DNA from: a virus
Lineage: Duplodnaviria; Heunggongvirae; Uroviricota; Caudoviricetes
DNA length: 64,000 bases
Virus record (IMG/VR): IMGVR_UViG_3300044699_000054
Coordinates: 1 to 64,000 of that record
Direction: 5' to 3' (one strand)
Made by a program: the position numbers. Shown here piece after piece: positions 1-6,000 of this stretch. Numbering within the stretch: position 1 is the first letter of the stretch; the number at the start of each line of letters is the position of its first letter.

Positions 1-3000
1 ACCCTCACAACCAGTGTAGCATAGGGAGCAGGGTTATGTACCCCTACAGAGGAGTGAGACAGTGACACGCACGGATGCGGAGCGCGCTCGACTGCTGCGC
101 GCACTAGCCGAGGGTCCCGACCGACGCATGGCAGCGGACAAACTGGCCGGCCGACAGCCGACGAAGGCAGACATGGAGCAGGCCGACAGATACCGGCGAG
201 CACTGGCGACCCTCCCGCCGGAGACTGCCCCTGACCTGGACGAATGACAAAATGTGGGGTGCCCATGGTATAGTGATACCAGGTAGCGGGGAACGGTCCG
301 CGCTACCGGAAGGGAGCGCAACCATGCTTACCATCCCGCCCGTGCACACGATCCTTGAGGCGTGCGAGTGTGGACGGCCGGCTATGCCGGACGTGGTAGT
401 GATCCAACACTGCGTGAATGAGGAGACCGGTGCGACGGCGACTCACGGGCCTGACAGGGTGTGTGAGGAGTGTGTGGTTGTGTGTGAGGATGACGCGGCG
501 CTAGGCGTGATCGTTCTGCACCTGCCATCCGAGACGTTCGAGCTGATCAGACTCAGCTAGCAGTGAACCGGGCGCCCAGTGATGGGTGCCCGGTTGCGAG
601 GACAGCCGACGGTCGACTGTCCAGAAGGGAGGGCCAGTCATGGCCGCATGTATCTCGTCCCACGAGGATGGCGATACAGGGACGGAGATCTATACCCGTC
701 CTGCCGACGATCATGCCCCCGGGCCAGACTGTCTGATCATGGCACGCTGCGTGCTGTGTGACGGCTTCATTCACTGCTGTGATGACGGCATGTCCTACCA
801 CGGCGCGGATGCGCACGTGGAGTGTGTCATCGGTCAGTACGACTCATCTGACCTGCAATGATCGTCGCGGCCGTATCCGGTGACGGGTACGGCCGCACTA
901 GCGAGCGACGGTCGCTCGTGAAGGAAGGGAGCTATGTCTCTCGATTTCAATGTCACAGGCTGCGCCAACCACGAGGAATTGTGGGACGGCGAGACGTGGC
1001 CACCGCCGGCAATGACAACCGTTATCGTGCACCTGTGCATGGGTATCGGTTGGGGCGAGATCACCGAGGCGAATGCTGAGGAGTGGTTCGCGCGAGTGTA
1101 CGCATGGGAGCGCGTCTATGGCCCGATGCTGCACGAATTCGACACGGACGAGGTAACGGTCAAGGACCGGTACATCACACCGGAGGACGTGCAGCGCTAC
1201 ATCGGGCTAGTGACGAACGTCTTTCCGAAGAGGTCAGACGCCGAGTTCCGTAAGCAGCTCGCCGCGCACCTGAAGGATCGAGCCGGATACATCTGGCGAG
1301 AGGCCATGAAACAGCCCGTGGCATGACCGTAAGCCTGTGCCCGTTCACGCGGGCACAGGTGCGAGGATGGGCGACGGTCGCCCGTCCGGGAAGGGGTACG
1401 ACCATGGGAATCATGGATGCCATCATGGGCGAGGCTATCGACCAGGATGCGTACGTGGATTACCAGACACTGCTCTATGCGGTACGGCGCACGATGTTCT
1501 GTGAGGACACGGGAGCGATCCTAGATGTCCGGCGCGCGGTGCTGTCCACGGTGAGGCTGCCAGACGGCGCGGCCGTCGCATTGATCCGTACGGATGAGGC
1601 GTTCGATAGGGTCGGTGGCGTGGATCTAGTCAAGGCCACGGCCGACCATTTCGGCGGCACGTATGAGGTTATCGACGGCCGTGACTTCACGGCTGACGGC
1701 AAGCTACGGGCAGCACGCGCGTAAGCGCATCACGGCCGCACAGGCGTAGACAGTGGCACGGGTACGGGCAACCGTACCCGTGCGCTCGATACCAAGCGAT
1801 CCCCACCGACAAAATGTGATCGGGTATGGTATCATGATACTAGCAGCCGGGGAAACCGGCTGCGTGGCCTGTCACGGCTAGCGCCGTGGCCACCCGAGTC
1901 CCGTACGGGGACACATGCCGCGTAACGCGTAGGCAGAGGGGAGGGCGTACCCGTGAGGGTAGCCGGGTCGCAATGCCCGCGACGGTCGTGGGCAGGAGGG
2001 AGCGTCATGTACGCGTACGTCGATGTCCCGGTAACGATCACGCTGGCACTGCCGACTGATCTCGACCTCACGATTGAGGACATGATCAAGATGGTGCTGG
2101 TCGCGGTCACAGAATCGACACCCCCGGTGGTGGTTCTGCAAGCCGAGCCGCACGTAACACTGACAGACGAGGAGTTCGAAGCGAAGGCCCAGCCAGTGCT
2201 CGCCGCCATAAGGGAGGCGCGCATTGAGGTGGAAGCGATCCTGGCGAAAGCTGAGGCCGCGCACCTGAACTGAGGATTCCGGCCGTACCCGTAGCGATAC
2301 GGGTACGGTGCGATGACAGGCGACGGTCGCCTGTCATGAGAGGAGCGACCAGCATGTCAGACTACTCGCTGTCATGGACCGAGACGCGCTCACACCAGTA
2401 CGATATCTGCTTGCCTGTCTCCGAGGTGATCGAAGTTTTCGCCGATCACGCGCTCGACGTCCTCACGGACGCCATCACGGAAGCGATCGAAAATGCCACA
2501 TACGATCTCGACCGGATGGGTCCCGTTCTTGAGGCGTTGCGCGCGAAAGCGAAGGCCGTCCCCGACGACGACACGCTAGATGATGTCACTGACGTGACTG
2601 TGTACCTGGACTAGCTCAATGTGTCCGGTACGGGTGACCGTATCGGGCACGCAATACCGCGACGGTCGCGGTAGGAAGGGAGCGCCATGCTCACCCATAA
2701 ATGTGCTCACTGCGGTCGCACTGGGGGGTCCGGCGGATGGTTCATCGGTACGGAGATCTTGTGTCAGTCCTTGCAGCAATGCTCTGTTGCGTCAAAAGGC
2801 TGCCAAGAGACATCGCCGTCCCGGTTGGTTCACTCGCCTACTCGCGCGACTGAGCGCATAACCGTGACCGTACCCGTGGCAACGCGGGTACGGTGCTCGA
2901 CTGTGGACGGTCCACAGTGGAAGGGAGCGCGCATCATGGCCATCATTGGCGTGATTCTGCTTGGCCTAGTCGTCAGTGCGGCAGGATCGTTAGCATTCGG

Positions 3001-6000
3001 ATGGGTATTTATGCTGCTCATTGGCGTGGTCCACGCTGAGTGGTTGCCTGCCCTGCCTACCATTGGATATTGGTGGGCCGTACTGATCACGTTCCTTCTA
3101 CGGGCAACACTGATGTCCGTAGACACGGACTTAGACTAACCAACGGCCGTGCCCGTGGCAACGCGGGTACGGTGCGAACATCGGGCGACGGTCGTCCGAT
3201 GTGGAGGGAGGCGTGCTATGCGCACGTTCACAGTCATTCTGACCACGGGCGAGATCATTCCCGAGGCATGTATCGTTGCGGCCAGCAATGGAGGCGACAC
3301 CGGTCTATCGTTCGGCTTTCAGTCACCAGCGGGAGTCGTGACATGGATCGATGACGAGGACATTGCCGCGCTACTCGGTACGGCCGACGCGGATACGATC
3401 GCGGTACGCCATGCTCGTGCGGTGCTCGCCGATGAAAAGCGGCAGGCACAGATCACGGCTGAGGTTGAAAGCGGCCGCATCCGGGAGCTACGCGAGGTCT
3501 GACAGTGAGCCGGTACGGGAGCGATTCCGTACCGGTGCCAATGATCGATGAGCGTACATAGACATAGCACGTAGAGAGGCCGGATACCTGCGGTGGCGCG
3601 GTGTCCGGCCGCGAGCACTGGCGACGGTCGCCCGTGTGAGAAAAGGAGAGATCATGTATGAGGCAGAGGTTCAGCGCGGCTTGGCATGGCTCAAGTCCAC
3701 TGAGGCCGCACAAGCTTTCGCGCCGGACCTGGACAGGGTCCAGCTTGACATTCTTCGGATGGAATTCCCGTGGTCATGTGTGCTGGGGCAGGCAATTGCA
3801 TCGGCAGACATCGACGGAATTGGTTACGAGTACAGTGGATATTGGCGGGTGGTACTGTCATCCTTCAATCCCTCCACAGAGGACGACGAATTCATGATCA
3901 CACATGGATTCAGGACCGATTTCGGTGGAGAGTACGGGCCACTGACCGAAGCATGGCGAGAGGCATTGACGGCAGACAGAGCCGCATCGTGAGATCCAGC
4001 CGTACCCGTGGCAACGCGGGTACGGTGCGAGACTGGCGACGGTCGCCAGTCGGAAGGGAGACAGGGATGTCGAAGAAAGTGACAAACCTCAATCCGGACG
4101 TGTGGCGGTTCCGTCACACCATGGGCGTGATCAGCGACCCCCGTGCCGACATCCGGCTAGTGCCCGGATGGTTTCACGGGCTGCAAGTCGAGATCATCGT
4201 GCACGTGTCGCGCGATGTTGACGGCCTGCACGGCTTGCCCATGGCCATACTGATCACGGCCGATTCGGACGACGCGGTTGTGATCGAGCCGCCACACACC
4301 ATCTAGCAAGGGTACGGCCGGCAGTGATGCTGGCCGTACCACAATGCCCGCGACGGTCGTGGGCAGGAAGGGAGAAACCCCCATGTCCGCAACGATCAAT
4401 TTCACCCGTACCACCGAACACTCACGCGACTTTGATTCGGTCGCTGAGCTGGTCGAATTCATCGACCACAACCGCGAGGCGCCAGGCGTCAATGGCCCGT
4501 TGCCGGAGCGCGACCAGGGAGAATCGATCGAAGACTATGTCGGTCGACTGGTCGATTACATCGATGGCAGCGTCATGGCCGCGATGATCGAAAGCGGCGC
4601 CGACGAGATGGATGAATCGTGGGAGGTAGATGAGTGGGAGGGCGAGGACGACGAGGACGACGAGTGACCGTGTAAGTGTAAGGGGTACGGCTGGCCGTGA
4701 GGCTGGCCGTACCGCCGTGTCCCGGACGGTCCGGGACCGAGAGAGGTAGCCATGGTGACGTGGTTTATCAAGTACAGGGAAGTGATCTTCTTCCTACTCG
4801 GCCTGCTTTCATCGCTGGTTGTCGCTACGGCGACGGCTTACACATCGTGGCAGCACATTGTCCACGTGGGTACAAAGGCGGGTGAGCCGGTAGCGGTATT
4901 ACTGCCCGTGGCAATCGACGGAATGATGATCAACAGCACAGTCATGGCTGCTGTCGATCGTTTCAGAAATCGAGCGACGCGAGTATGGGCCGTGATCGGG
5001 TTATGGTTGGGGTCAACTCTCACGCTCACGTTCAACGTGTCTAGCGCGTATGACCGGGGCGTCGTTGCAATGGCCATAGCCGCTGTGTACGCGGTGGCCT
5101 TGCTGGTGACGGTGGAGACCATGTTTCACCCGTCCCAACGCTGGGCGAAGGCATTTCTCGCGGCACATCGTGAGCGTGATACGTCAACCGATACTGAGTC
5201 GGTGACGGTCGCGGCCGAGAAACCAGCGCCAGTCGCTCCGACAGCCAACCGGCCGGGGCGTCGGCCCGGACCTCAGGGTAAGGCGCGCAAGCGTCGCCCA
5301 TCGGTCCAGGGCCATCCTGGCGCGGGTGAGCCGGCCGTAACCGTTGCCGCATCGGGACCGCAGGGGACAGAGGAGCAGCGCGAGCCTCAGGCAATCGAGG
5401 CCGCGCCGATCTTCCGCGAACCTGTGATCATCGATGCGGATGTCGTGGCCTGACATGATAGGGTGGATATCATGACACAGCTATCGACATTCGCCAGGGT
5501 TGCCCCTGGTCGGACCAAGTTTCAATTGGTGATCGATCAGGAGCAGCTAGACGCCGTACGTGAGTACGCGGAATCGGACGACGTGACTGCTTCCGAATGG
5601 GTCCGTCGGGTCATTGAGCGTGCCGTCCGGGCACGTGCCAAGCGGAGACCGTAGCCATGCGGCCGGTACCGGGGTTGCGCCCGGTACCGGTACCAAGCGA
5701 CAAAATATGAACCATCATGATACACTGTCTTTGTGGACCTAAGGTTCCATGAGCGCCGAGCACCAGATCAGCCTAGGACCGGTGAATAGCCCGGCGACCG
5801 TGCACCCCGAATGCGGAGGAGCGCGGGAGAGAGCGTCGGCAAGCAAGCATTGCCGATCTCGGCGTTCTTGCAGCCTTAGGTACATGGCCCGTACCCGAGC
5901 GATCGGGTACGGGCGCGAGACTGGCGACGGTCGCCGGTCGGAAGGGAGGGTCAGTGATGGCCCGAGGTAAAACGATCACGCGCGCAGCAACGGCCGCATG

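What the first reader, a model, noticed from the sequence alone, without database searches (positions are those of the whole stretch)
245..5726. Three copies of a promoter/operator element built on the palindrome GTATCATGATAC
Elements at 245-280, 1807-1841 and 5698-5726 share (T/C)GACAAAATGTG (a -35-like TGACAA) followed 17-18 nt later by a -10-like hexamer embedded in GTATCATGATAC (perfect at 1829-1840, near-perfect in the other two). B and C are also preceded by TACCAAGCGA. Each heads a sub-block of early genes. A palindrome overlapping the -10 is the classic architecture of a repressor-controlled early promoter.
Basis: seen in the sequence. Interest (0 to 1): 0.65.

Follow-up and report, generated by a model that had tools for sequence, protein, structure and literature searches.

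The report
Conserved early promoters of a soil actinophage
The three elements are real, co-oriented host-type (sigma-70/SigA, extended -10) early promoters of a previously undescribed soil actinobacteriophage; the promoter reading is well supported by related genomes, whereas the idea that the palindrome is a repressor binding site is only partly supported and remains untested.

Summary
GACAAAATRTG occurs exactly three times (0.02 expected), always on the + strand in intergenic DNA, each time 17-18 nt upstream of a TGnTAnnnT extended -10. The description of the palindrome is too generous. Only B (1829-1840) is a perfect 12-mer. A keeps the outer arms (GGTAT-N4-ATACC). C keeps only the inner ATCATGAT, and its box lies 8 bp closer to the -35, so the working -10 of C is TACACT (5721-5726).

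The window is a novel siphovirus of Actinobacteria. A weight matrix built only from 18 promoter sites in distant relatives ranks B, A and C as 1, 2 and 4 of about 128,000 window positions. Rank 3 is a fourth, leftward site at 13-21(-). Close relatives (~95%) keep the boxes, and the changes in C move towards consensus (TGACAA, TACAAT).

Invariant across the family are TG(G)TAnnnT, a G after the hexamer, and AG at the expected start site. The right half of the dyad (ATAC) is present in only about a third of sites and never occurs away from a promoter. The neighbouring 60-aa protein does have a ribbon-helix-helix fold, and a fourth copy of the 10-mer covers its start codon.

Verdict: promoters about 0.85; operator for a dimeric repressor about 0.3. 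This is a new member of a known kind, of modest interest.

The parts
245..282 (+). Promoter A. The -35 is TGACAA (245-250; its TGA is the stop codon of ORF 62-247). The spacer is 18 nt. The extended -10 is TGG-TATAGT (266-274), followed by G275. The dyad is GGTAT (267-271) / ATACC (276-280). The predicted start is A281/G282, leading straight into a 5' hairpin (282-307), an SD and the ATG at 324.
   Evidence: matrix rank 2 of 127,920; conserved in L180, L207, L211 and L221 with one spacer change, G261C; 5' hairpin -20.5 kcal/mol.
1807..1843 (+). Promoter B. The -35 is CGACAA (1807-1812). The spacer is 17 nt. The extended -10 is TGG-TATCAT (1827-1835). The perfect palindrome GTATCATGATAC lies at 1829-1840. 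The predicted start is A1842.
   Evidence: matrix rank 1; the 14-mer GGTATCATGATACT is identical in distant relative L160 at 4958-4971; at the unbiased sites in L180 and L211 the only change is GATAC to GATAT.
5698..5733 (+). Promoter C. The -35 is CGACAA (5698-5703). The spacer is 17 nt. The extended -10 is TGA-TACACT (5718-5726). The ATCATGATAC box (5714-5723) lies partly in the spacer. The predicted start is near G5733.
   Evidence: matrix rank 4; the unbiased relatives L165 and L166 keep GACAAAAT and ACCATCATGATACA, and L166 has TGACAA and TACAAT, both closer to consensus; a promoter sits at the same post-RHH position in L160 at 10747.
13..45 (-). Fourth, leftward family promoter at the window's left edge. 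The extended -10 TGC-TACACT is the reverse complement of 13-21. It points out of the window; in close relatives it faces leftward genes.
   Evidence: Matrix rank 3 of 127,920; divergent layout in L221, L207, L211 and L180.
1842..2006 (+). Untranslated, highly structured leader of about 165 nt transcribed from B. It ends in the CGACGGTCG hairpin and the SD of the gene starting at 2007.
   Evidence: MFE -90.8 kcal/mol, z = -3.3; conserved in six close relatives; long noncoding leaders also follow the equivalent promoters in L073, L160 and L161; no Rfam match.
5733..5956 (+). Leader transcribed from C. The ORF listed at 5749-5970 is not a gene.
   Evidence: About 146 nt of it are deleted in L166 and L198 with the promoter retained.
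5472..5654 (+). 60-aa ribbon-helix-helix protein, the last gene of the B block. It is the candidate dyad-binding regulator.
   Evidence: Weak Pfam and PDB sequence hits, all to RHH families; AlphaFold model with pLDDT 80 and strand-helix-helix topology; Foldseek top hits are almost all RHH proteins; the gene follows DUF2637 in 7 of 9 relatives.
5454..5478 (+). CATGATA (5454-5460) / TATCATG (5468-5474) inverted repeat and a fourth copy of the 10-mer (ATCATGACAC, 5469-5478), both over the RHH start codon. TGA-TAGGGT (5456-5464) lies 7 nt before the ATG and may be an internal leaderless-type promoter and/or an autoregulatory site.
   Evidence: in L159 and L160 the RHH ATG lies exactly 6 nt after TG(G/A)TATCAT; as RNA the hairpin is not better than shuffles (z = -0.2).
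1756..1783 (+). 12-bp GC-rich hairpin just upstream of B, with no U tail.
   Evidence: -28.3 kcal/mol, z = -4.3.
5662..5688 (+). 12-bp GC-rich hairpin just upstream of C, with no U tail.
   Evidence: -26.9 kcal/mol, z = -2.5.

Best explanation
A, B and C, plus a fourth leftward site at 13-21(-), are early promoters read by the host's primary-sigma (SigA / sigma-70-type) RNA polymerase.

Proposed mechanism:
- Recognition rests mainly on an extended -10 (TG-n-TAnnnT) followed by a G. A weak -35, (T/C)GACAA, running into an A-tract and placed 17-18 nt upstream, assists.
- Transcription is predicted to start at the A/G about 7 nt after the hexamer and to run at once into a stable 5' hairpin.
- The three co-directional promoters feed successive parts of a 9.9-kb array of small early genes: 324-1724, 2007-5654 and 5957-9929. 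B and C each transcribe a long structured leader first.

The palindromic look arises because the left half (GGTAT) is the extended -10 itself, and the discriminator carries a recurrent GATAC(C).

Shown: sequence, geometry, statistics and cross-genome conservation.
Inferred: use by host RNA polymerase, the start sites, and early timing.
For: - Exact geometry, and these are the only such sites in the early region.
- The -35 box occurs 3 times against 0.02 expected.
- Extended -10-like sequences are depleted window-wide (10 against 23.4 +/- 4.9), so the intergenic survivors stand out.
- Relative IMGVR_UViG_3300048896_000122 is almost unalignable with the window at the DNA level, yet it has two near-canonical TTGACA-17-TATACT-GATAGTAG sites at the equivalent places.
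- L159, L160 and L163 carry 3-7 sites each of TGGTAT(C/A)nTG, in divergent early intergenic regions, before long leaders, and after the RHH gene.
- A matrix built from those 18 sites ranks B, A, the leftward site and C as 1-4 of 127,920 window positions.
- Close relatives found independently of element C keep its boxes, and their changes improve the match to consensus.
- At the unbiased B sites in L180 and L211 both hexamers are intact.
- SigA-like, divergent and leaderless promoters are documented in other actinophages (PMC4351075).
Against: - There are no transcription start data.
- The host is unknown, so its SigA consensus cannot be checked.
- The -35 hexamers of B and C match TTGACA at only 4 of 6 positions.
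- Most close relatives were retrieved with a pattern that required the boxes, so only L165 and L166 (for C) and L180 and L211 (for B) count as unbiased.
- The conserved GATAC after the -10 is not explained by known sigma-DNA contacts.
Confidence: 0.85

Rival explanations
1. Promoter plus operator. The dyad GGTAT-N4-ATACC / GTATCATGATAC that overlaps the -10 and discriminator is the binding site of a dimeric repressor. The most likely candidate is the RHH protein encoded at 5472-5654, at the end of the B operon. It would accumulate and shut off A and B (and C through its ATCATGAT core), and it would autoregulate through the copy over its own start codon. This adds to the promoter reading and does not replace it.
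For: - The RHH fold is supported.
- The RHH gene is conserved next to DUF2637 in 7 of 9 relatives.
- GATAC(C/T)AG after the -10 recurs in the window, in L163 (3 of 3 sites), at the L160 rightward divergent promoter and at L159 11564, and as GATAG in L073. It has no known sigma function.
- The 10-mer ATMRTGAYAC occurs 7 times against 0.92 expected, including a copy on the RHH start codon.
- The two relatives without the RHH gene (L156, L162) have a family-type -10 without GATAC, bracketed by a different inverted repeat.
- From general knowledge: P22 Arc and Mnt, CopG and omega are RHH repressors that act at or over promoters and autoregulate.
Against: - The left half-site is fully explained by the extended -10.
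- Only 8 of 23 sites have at least 4 of 5 symmetric outer pairs, and C has 1-2 of 5.
- The right half does not co-vary with changes in the left half (L073 P2', L163 1217).
- Most L159 and L160 promoters lack the right half although the RHH gene is present.
- The unbiased change in B removes the outermost pair.
- There are no free-standing dyads.
- No binding data exist, and other small early proteins of unknown function could be the binder.
Confidence: 0.3
2. The elements are promoters for a phage-encoded RNA polymerase or sigma factor, or single-stranded hairpin promoters of the N4 type that use the palindrome as a stem-loop.
For: A very large ORF of more than 2,986 aa (55037-63997, minus strand) has unknown function. 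The 12-mer could in principle form a short hairpin.
Against: - The sites fit host sigma-70 geometry, and the relative has a canonical TTGACA-17-TATACT.
- No RNA polymerase or sigma domain was detected in any protein tested.
- The phage is a siphovirus with a tape measure and major tail protein, not an N4-like podovirus.
- The hairpin would have a 4-5-bp AT-rich stem, and it is absent from C and from most family members.
Confidence: 0.05
3. The three elements are non-functional leftovers of local duplication, and the similarity among them carries no function.
For: B and C share an extra upstream TACCAAGCGA that is not constrained in relatives, which points to common descent.
Against: The family is conserved in genomes that share almost no DNA similarity with the window. 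Substitutions in close relatives avoid the boxes or improve them. In C the -35 to -10 spacing of 17 nt was re-established after the box moved. Promoter-like sequences are otherwise depleted.
Confidence: 0.04

Closest known systems
SigA-like (sigma-70-type) promoters of actinobacteriophages, for example PL1-PL6 and PR1-PR3 of Cluster O mycobacteriophages (PMC4351075)
   Same: Host-type -35/-10 geometry; several promoters spread along arrays of small non-structural genes; divergent pairs in AT-rich intergenic regions; some placed to give leaderless mRNAs, as for the RHH gene in L159 and L160.
   Different: This family relies on an extended -10 with an invariant following G and an A-tract at the -35. 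It often carries GATAC(C/T)AG downstream and belongs to an uncharacterised phage lineage (no megablast match in GenBank phages). Promoter activity has not been measured here.
P22 immI region: the Arc and Mnt ribbon-helix-helix repressors acting at the Pant/Pmnt operators (recalled from general knowledge, not tested here)
   Same: A small phage RHH protein encoded downstream of the promoter that it is proposed to repress, with a dyad site overlapping core promoter elements and autoregulation.
   Different: Arc binds a 21-bp operator as a tetramer on two subsites. Here the dyad is 12-14 bp, its left half is the -10 itself, it is imperfect in 2 of the 3 elements, and binding is unproven. Sequence similarity to Arc is at fold level only.
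Stoperator/operator sites of the L5 gp71 repressor in Cluster A mycobacteriophages (mentioned in PMC3203893; details from general knowledge)
   Same: Short repeated sites associated with early promoters of an actinophage and proposed to control early transcription.
   Different: The L5 sites are asymmetric 13-mers, number about 30 across the genome, and are mostly away from promoters. Here there are only 3-4 copies and every copy coincides with a promoter. No immunity repressor or integrase was found among the proteins tested.
Start-associated sequences (SAS/ESAS) of Cluster K mycobacteriophages (PMC3203893). This is the closest analogue of the neighbouring CGACGGTCG cassettes, not of the finding itself.
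   Same: A conserved short motif plus an inverted repeat immediately upstream of the start codons of many non-structural genes, in one orientation.
   Different: The motif differs (CGACGGTCG at the centre of the hairpin, against GGGATAGGAGCCC at the RBS). Here the invariant core lies inside a hairpin whose outer arms co-vary.

Membership tests
Sigma-70 / SigA-type bacterial promoter (extended -10 class) | A -10 hexamer fitting TAnnnT with TGn immediately upstream | tested here: met
   A is TGG-TATAGT, B is TGG-TATCAT and C is TGA-TACACT.
Sigma-70 / SigA-type bacterial promoter (extended -10 class) | A -35-like hexamer 16-18 nt upstream of the -10 | tested here: met
   TGACAA at 18 nt (A) and CGACAA at 17 nt (B and C). 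These match TTGACA at 4-5 of 6 positions when read as (T/C)TGACA-shifted. The generic scanner calls B at 9 of 12.
Sigma-70 / SigA-type bacterial promoter (extended -10 class) | Intergenic position, co-oriented with downstream genes | tested here: met
   All three lie on the + strand between + strand ORFs.
Sigma-70 / SigA-type bacterial promoter (extended -10 class) | Conservation of the core elements in related genomes | tested here: met
Sigma-70 / SigA-type bacterial promoter (extended -10 class) | Transcripts that start about 7 nt downstream, made by host holoenzyme | not testable with these tools
   No transcriptome or biochemistry is available, and the host is unknown.
Repressor operator overlapping a promoter (Arc/Mnt/CopG-like RHH control) | Two-fold symmetric site present at all regulated promoters | tested here: inconclusive
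   B is perfect (6 of 6 pairs of the 12-mer). A keeps the outer 5 of 5 pairs of the 14-mer. C has 1-2 of 5. Across the family, 8 of 23 sites have at least 4 of 5 outer pairs.
Repressor operator overlapping a promoter (Arc/Mnt/CopG-like RHH control) | Symmetry maintained beyond what promoter elements require (compensation between half-sites) | tested here: not met
   The left half equals the extended -10. The right half stays GATAC or GATAG when the left half changes (L073 P2', L163 1217). The unbiased change in B breaks a pair.
Repressor operator overlapping a promoter (Arc/Mnt/CopG-like RHH control) | A cognate DNA-binding protein encoded nearby | tested here: met
   An RHH-fold protein is encoded at 5472-5654 and is syntenic in 7 of 9 relatives.
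Repressor operator overlapping a promoter (Arc/Mnt/CopG-like RHH control) | Demonstrated binding and repression | not testable with these tools
   This requires EMSA or footprinting and reporter assays.
N4-type hairpin promoters for a virion RNA polymerase | A 5-7-bp stem with a 3-nt loop at a fixed distance from the start site, in all early promoters, plus a giant virion RNA polymerase | tested here: not met
   There is no consistent hairpin. The giant ORF has no polymerase signature. The virion genes are those of a siphovirus.

The most novel reading that the evidence does not exclude
The dyad over the -10 and discriminator is a true operator for the conserved DUF2637-linked RHH protein. That protein is made from the end of the B operon, and in some relatives from its own leaderless promoter. 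It feeds back on every early promoter, including a site over its own start codon. This would be a self-timing shut-off switch for the hairpin-cassette early-gene array in an apparently non-temperate, undescribed lineage of soil actinophages.
Probability: 0.25. Interest if true: 0.45.

Novelty: new member of a known kind. Interest (0 to 1): 0.3.

Why it matters
It gives a working transcription map for the early region of an uncharacterised actinophage lineage: four promoters, their predicted start sites, two long leaders and a candidate regulator. It also gives a compact, portable promoter consensus, (TT)GAcAAAA-N11-13-TGGTATnnTG, that could be used to annotate related metagenomic phages or as promoter parts for Actinobacteria. 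It does not change any general principle, since phage early promoters read by host polymerase, sometimes overlapped by repressor sites, are textbook. The neighbouring intergenic cassette system and the rearrangement at the window's left edge are arguably more unusual than the promoters themselves.

Tried and rejected
- Megablast of the first 8 kb against GenBank phages gave no match.
- A protein-pattern search of viral contigs with the DUF2637 protein alone found nothing.
- The loose promoter pattern in viral contigs gave 63 single hits, judged to be chance.
- tRNA/tmRNA and Rfam searches of the window and relatives, aimed at the long leaders and the T-arm-like motifs, were all negative.
- A homologue search with the RHH protein returned only two near-identical sequences, so the structure model rests on a shallow alignment.
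- The N4-like hairpin-promoter and virion-polymerase idea, prompted by the giant ORF, was rejected because the geometry is host-type, the virion genes are siphoviral, and the hairpin is inconsistent.
- TACCAAGCGA as a functional upstream element was rejected because it varies in ~95% relatives.
- The 73-aa ORF at 5749-5970 was rejected as the first gene of the C block because it is deleted in L166 and L198.
- The inverted repeat at the RHH start was tested as an RNA hairpin and is not better than shuffles (z = -0.2).
- The extra 10-mer copies at 20004 and 29522 lie inside coding sequence and were not counted as regulatory.
- The co-occurrence of the RHH gene with the GATAC half-site across genomes was examined, but the sample (7 genomes with the gene, 2 without) is too small to weigh.

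
Full report
**What the window is**

Forward-strand small genes fill about 1-28 kb and reverse-strand virion genes fill about 28-64 kb. The virion genes include:
- a major head protein at 52488-54221 (phrog_777, E = 4e-122);
- a tape measure protein at 43543-45648;
- a major tail protein at 50565-51341;
- an endolysin at 35021-36007.

The capsid protein is at best 41% identical to that of Actinoplanes phage phiAsp2. All 864 tblastn hits are actinobacteriophages, and no GenBank phage matches at the DNA level. The window is therefore a novel siphovirus of an actinobacterial host, and relatives come from soil and rhizosphere metagenomes. No integrase or immunity repressor was found among the proteins tested.

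**Checking the observation**

| Element | -35 | Spacer | Extended -10 |
|---|---|---|---|
| A | TGACAA 245-250 | 18 nt | TGG-TATAGT 266-274 |
| B | CGACAA 1807-1812 | 17 nt | TGG-TATCAT 1827-1835 |
| C | CGACAA 5698-5703 | 17 nt | TGA-TACACT 5718-5726 |

The statistics support a non-chance origin:
- The shared box GACAAAATRTG has three exact copies against 0.02 expected.
- The 12-mer with up to 2 mismatches has 6 copies against 1.6 expected.
- A strict '-35 plus extended -10' pattern finds only these three sites on either strand of the first 12 kb.
- Extended -10-like strings are depleted across the window, 10 against 23.4 +/- 4.9. This is what selection against stray promoters would produce.

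Two details need correcting.

First, only B is a perfect palindrome (1829-1840). A keeps the outer arms (GGTAT-N4-ATACC, 267-280) but not the centre. C keeps the inner ATCATGAT but not the outer pairs.

Second, in C the ATCATGATAC box lies 4 nt after the -35 box, against 12-13 nt in B and A. The hexamer at the proper 17-nt distance is therefore TACACT, not the hexamer inside the 12-mer.

The decamer TACCAAGCGA before B and C is exact only there. It varies among ~95% relatives, so it looks like shared ancestry and not a functional element.

**Evidence from distant relatives**

A second repeat noticed while reading, CGACGGTCG followed by an RBS, served as a handle to find relatives. One viral contig, IMGVR_UViG_3300048896_000122 (loci L073 and L084), carries nine copies. 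Only 163 bp of it can be aligned to the window. At the positions equivalent to A and B it has two near-canonical promoters, TTGACA-17-TATACT-GATAGTAG.

Homologues of the DUF2637 membrane protein (4752-5453) led to further relatives, L156-L166. L159, L160 and L163 carry three to seven sites each of TGGTAT(C/A)nTG. These lie:
- back-to-back in divergent early intergenic regions;
- ahead of long noncoding leaders;
- in L160, immediately after the RHH gene, which is the position of C.

The rightward divergent promoter of L160 contains the same 14-mer as B, GGTATCATGATACT.

A weight matrix was built from 18 sites in these relatives with no window sequence included. Of 127,920 window positions it ranks B first (25.9 bits), A second (17.3) and C fourth (10.8). 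Rank 3 (11.1) is a previously unnoticed leftward site at the extreme left of the window, TGC-TACACT, the reverse complement of 13-21.

**Evidence from close relatives**

A metagenome scan returned ten contigs 87-99% identical to the window. The scan pattern required the boxes, so only sites not used for retrieval count as unbiased.
- L165 and L166 were found through the protein. Their copy of C keeps GACAAAAT and ACCATCATGATACA. L166 changes CGACAA to TGACAA and TACACT to TACAAT, both towards consensus. L166 also deletes about 146 nt of the leader.
- L180 and L211 were found through A. Their copy of B is identical except for GATAC to GATAT, a change at the outermost position of the palindrome.

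**What is constrained**

Across 23-24 sites in six genomes, four features are invariant or nearly so:
- TG(G)TAnnnT;
- a G right after the hexamer;
- usually AG at 7-8 nt, the expected start site;
- an A- or T-tract in the -35 region.

The left half of the 'palindrome' is therefore the extended -10 itself. The right half, ATAC(C), is present in the window (A and B), in L163 (all three sites), in one L160 site and in one or two L159 sites, and as ATAG in L073. Most L159 and L160 promoters lack it. Only 8 of 23 sites have at least 4 of 5 symmetric outer pairs. The right half does not compensate when the left half varies. The dyad GTAT-N4-ATAC never occurs away from a promoter -10 in any genome examined.

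**The proposed binding protein**

The 60-aa ORF at 5472-5654 has only weak sequence hits, but all are to RHH families. An AlphaFold model (pLDDT 80) shows strand 14-18, helix 23-35 and helix 40-58. Its Foldseek matches are almost exclusively RHH proteins: Arc, CopG, ORF56, PutA, FitA, AmrZ and mycobacterial antitoxins. Probabilities reach 0.96, although E-values are poor for so small a domain.

The gene follows DUF2637 in 7 of 9 relatives. In L159 and L160 its ATG lies exactly 6 nt after a family-type TG(G/A)TATCAT, which is the geometry of a leaderless transcript. In the window a fourth copy of the 10-mer (ATCATGACAC, 5469-5478) covers the RHH start codon. The pattern ATMRTGAYAC occurs 7 times against 0.92 expected, but two copies (20004 and 29522) lie inside coding sequence.

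The two relatives without the RHH gene (L156 and L162) each show one family-type -10 that lacks GATAC and is bracketed by a different inverted repeat. This is suggestive, but the sample is far too small to weigh.

**Most likely mechanism**

Host SigA-type holoenzyme uses A, B and C as extended -10 promoters. The predicted starts are near 281, 1842 and 5733. Each transcript opens with a stable hairpin. B and C first transcribe leaders of about 165 and 220 nt. The B leader is conserved and strongly structured (z = -3.3). The C leader is dispensable.

Together the three promoters re-supply transcription along a 9.9-kb array of small genes separated by strong hairpins. The array ends at a terminator-like hairpin at 9957-9992 (z = -7).

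Whether the dyad also serves as an operator for the RHH protein, giving feedback shut-off and autoregulation, remains open. I put that at about 0.3, against about 0.85 for the promoter reading.

**Comparison with known systems and novelty**

SigA-like promoters in actinophages, including divergent and leaderless ones, are well documented, for example in Cluster O (PMC4351075). RHH repressors acting over promoters are textbook (P22 Arc and Mnt, CopG; recalled from general knowledge). This is therefore a new member of a known kind in an undescribed lineage.

The operator membership test gave mixed results:
- one feature met (a cognate RHH protein nearby);
- one inconclusive (symmetry at all sites);
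- one not met (symmetry beyond what the promoter requires);
- one untestable (binding).

Interest is modest, at 0.3.

**Limits**

There are no transcription or binding data, and the host is unknown. Copies within one genome and contigs from related samples are not independent. Most close relatives were retrieved with a pattern that fixed the boxes. The RHH model rests on three near-identical sequences.

Noticed in passing
window 600-9400 (+), e.g. 607-615, 906-914, 1372-1380 ... 9377-9385: There are eighteen intergenic cassettes. Each is a hairpin with an invariant core (CGACGGTCG 16 times against 0.87 expected, plus GGACGGTCC twice) and outer arms that differ from copy to copy yet stay complementary (stems of 7-15 bp). 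Each ends 2-12 nt before a GGAAGGGAG-type SD and a start codon, and is usually preceded by a second hairpin (GTACCCG...CGGGTAC). Relatives have them too: 9 copies in L073/L084 and 23 in L156, while L159 uses a different core, GGGAACGGTTCCC. The closest analogue is the SAS/ESAS of Cluster K mycobacteriophages (PMC3203893). Function is unknown; translation control or RNA processing are possibilities. This is arguably more unusual than the promoters.
   Followed up: partly
window 1 and 9985-11909; L180, L207, L211, L221: Window position 1 is a breakpoint. Four independent contigs from close relatives join the reverse complement of window ~9988-11909 (86-93% identity) directly to window position 1. 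This gives the divergent leftward/rightward layout also seen in L156, L159, L160 and L163, and it gives the leftward promoter at 13-21 something to transcribe. The window has no long internal inverted repeat. The end of the IMG/VR contig shows the same pattern. The cause could be an inversion of the 9.9-kb early segment, an inverted paralogue at the other genome end, or an assembly artefact. This is unresolved.
   Followed up: partly
window 5957-6284 (insertion near 6018-6021): A 1-nt insertion in the window (GGCCTGTCTG, against GGCTGT-CTG and GGCTTG-CTG in L173 and L198) splits a gene that is intact in the relatives. The intact gene encodes a lipoprotein signal peptide with a lipobox (MARGKTITRAATAAWSIVIGLLLVIAC...). 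This is a frameshift mutation or a sequencing error.
   Followed up: yes
window 5749-5970: The 73-aa ORF that starts just after element C is not a gene. About 146 nt of it are cleanly deleted in L166 and L198 while the promoter and the downstream cassette are kept.
   Followed up: yes
L073 (minus strand, ~1850-1830), L156 2950-2985, L161 ~740-780: tRNA-like T-arm motifs (GGTTCGA(C/T)TCC flanked by complementary G/C runs) lie near the 3' end of the long noncoding leaders that follow early promoters in three relatives. ARAGORN and Rfam find no tRNA, tmRNA or known family. The window's B leader has no such motif.
   Followed up: partly
L159 6431-6448; L160 10441-10458; window 5456-5474: The RHH gene appears to have its own leaderless-type promoter. 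In L159 and L160 the geometry is TG(G/A)TATCAT-N6-ATG; the L160 gene had been called in the wrong frame. The window has TGA-TAGGGT-N7-ATG and L084 has TAAGGT-N7-ATG.
   Followed up: partly
L162 2515-2560; L156 6450-6490: In the two relatives that lack the RHH gene, the only family-type promoter (TG(G/A)TATACT) lies between the arms of a different inverted repeat (GCACACGGT ... ACCGTGTGC). This may be an alternative operator or a hairpin with the promoter in its loop.
   Followed up: no
window, whole: Extended -10-like strings (TGnTAnnnTG) are depleted: 10 observed against 23.4 +/- 4.9 in dinucleotide shuffles, and all 200 shuffles have at least as many. This fits selection against spurious promoters.
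   Followed up: yes
window 55037-63997 (-): An ORF of more than 2,986 aa runs off the right end of the window, upstream of the capsid gene. It has a strong AT skew, no Pfam hit, and only a weak match to an uncharacterised PHROG.
   Followed up: no
window 2687-3139 (+): One reading frame runs uninterrupted from the start of a small Cys-rich gene (2687) through an intergenic hairpin cassette into the next gene (start at 2937, a membrane protein). This could be chance absence of a stop, a frameshift, or a real fusion. It was not checked against relatives.
   Followed up: no
window 28715-33574 (-): A glycosyltransferase, a nucleotide-sugar epimerase-like protein and a C-methyltransferase (PF08484/PF08421) are clustered at the end of the late arm. 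This sugar-modification module is unusual for a phage.
   Followed up: no
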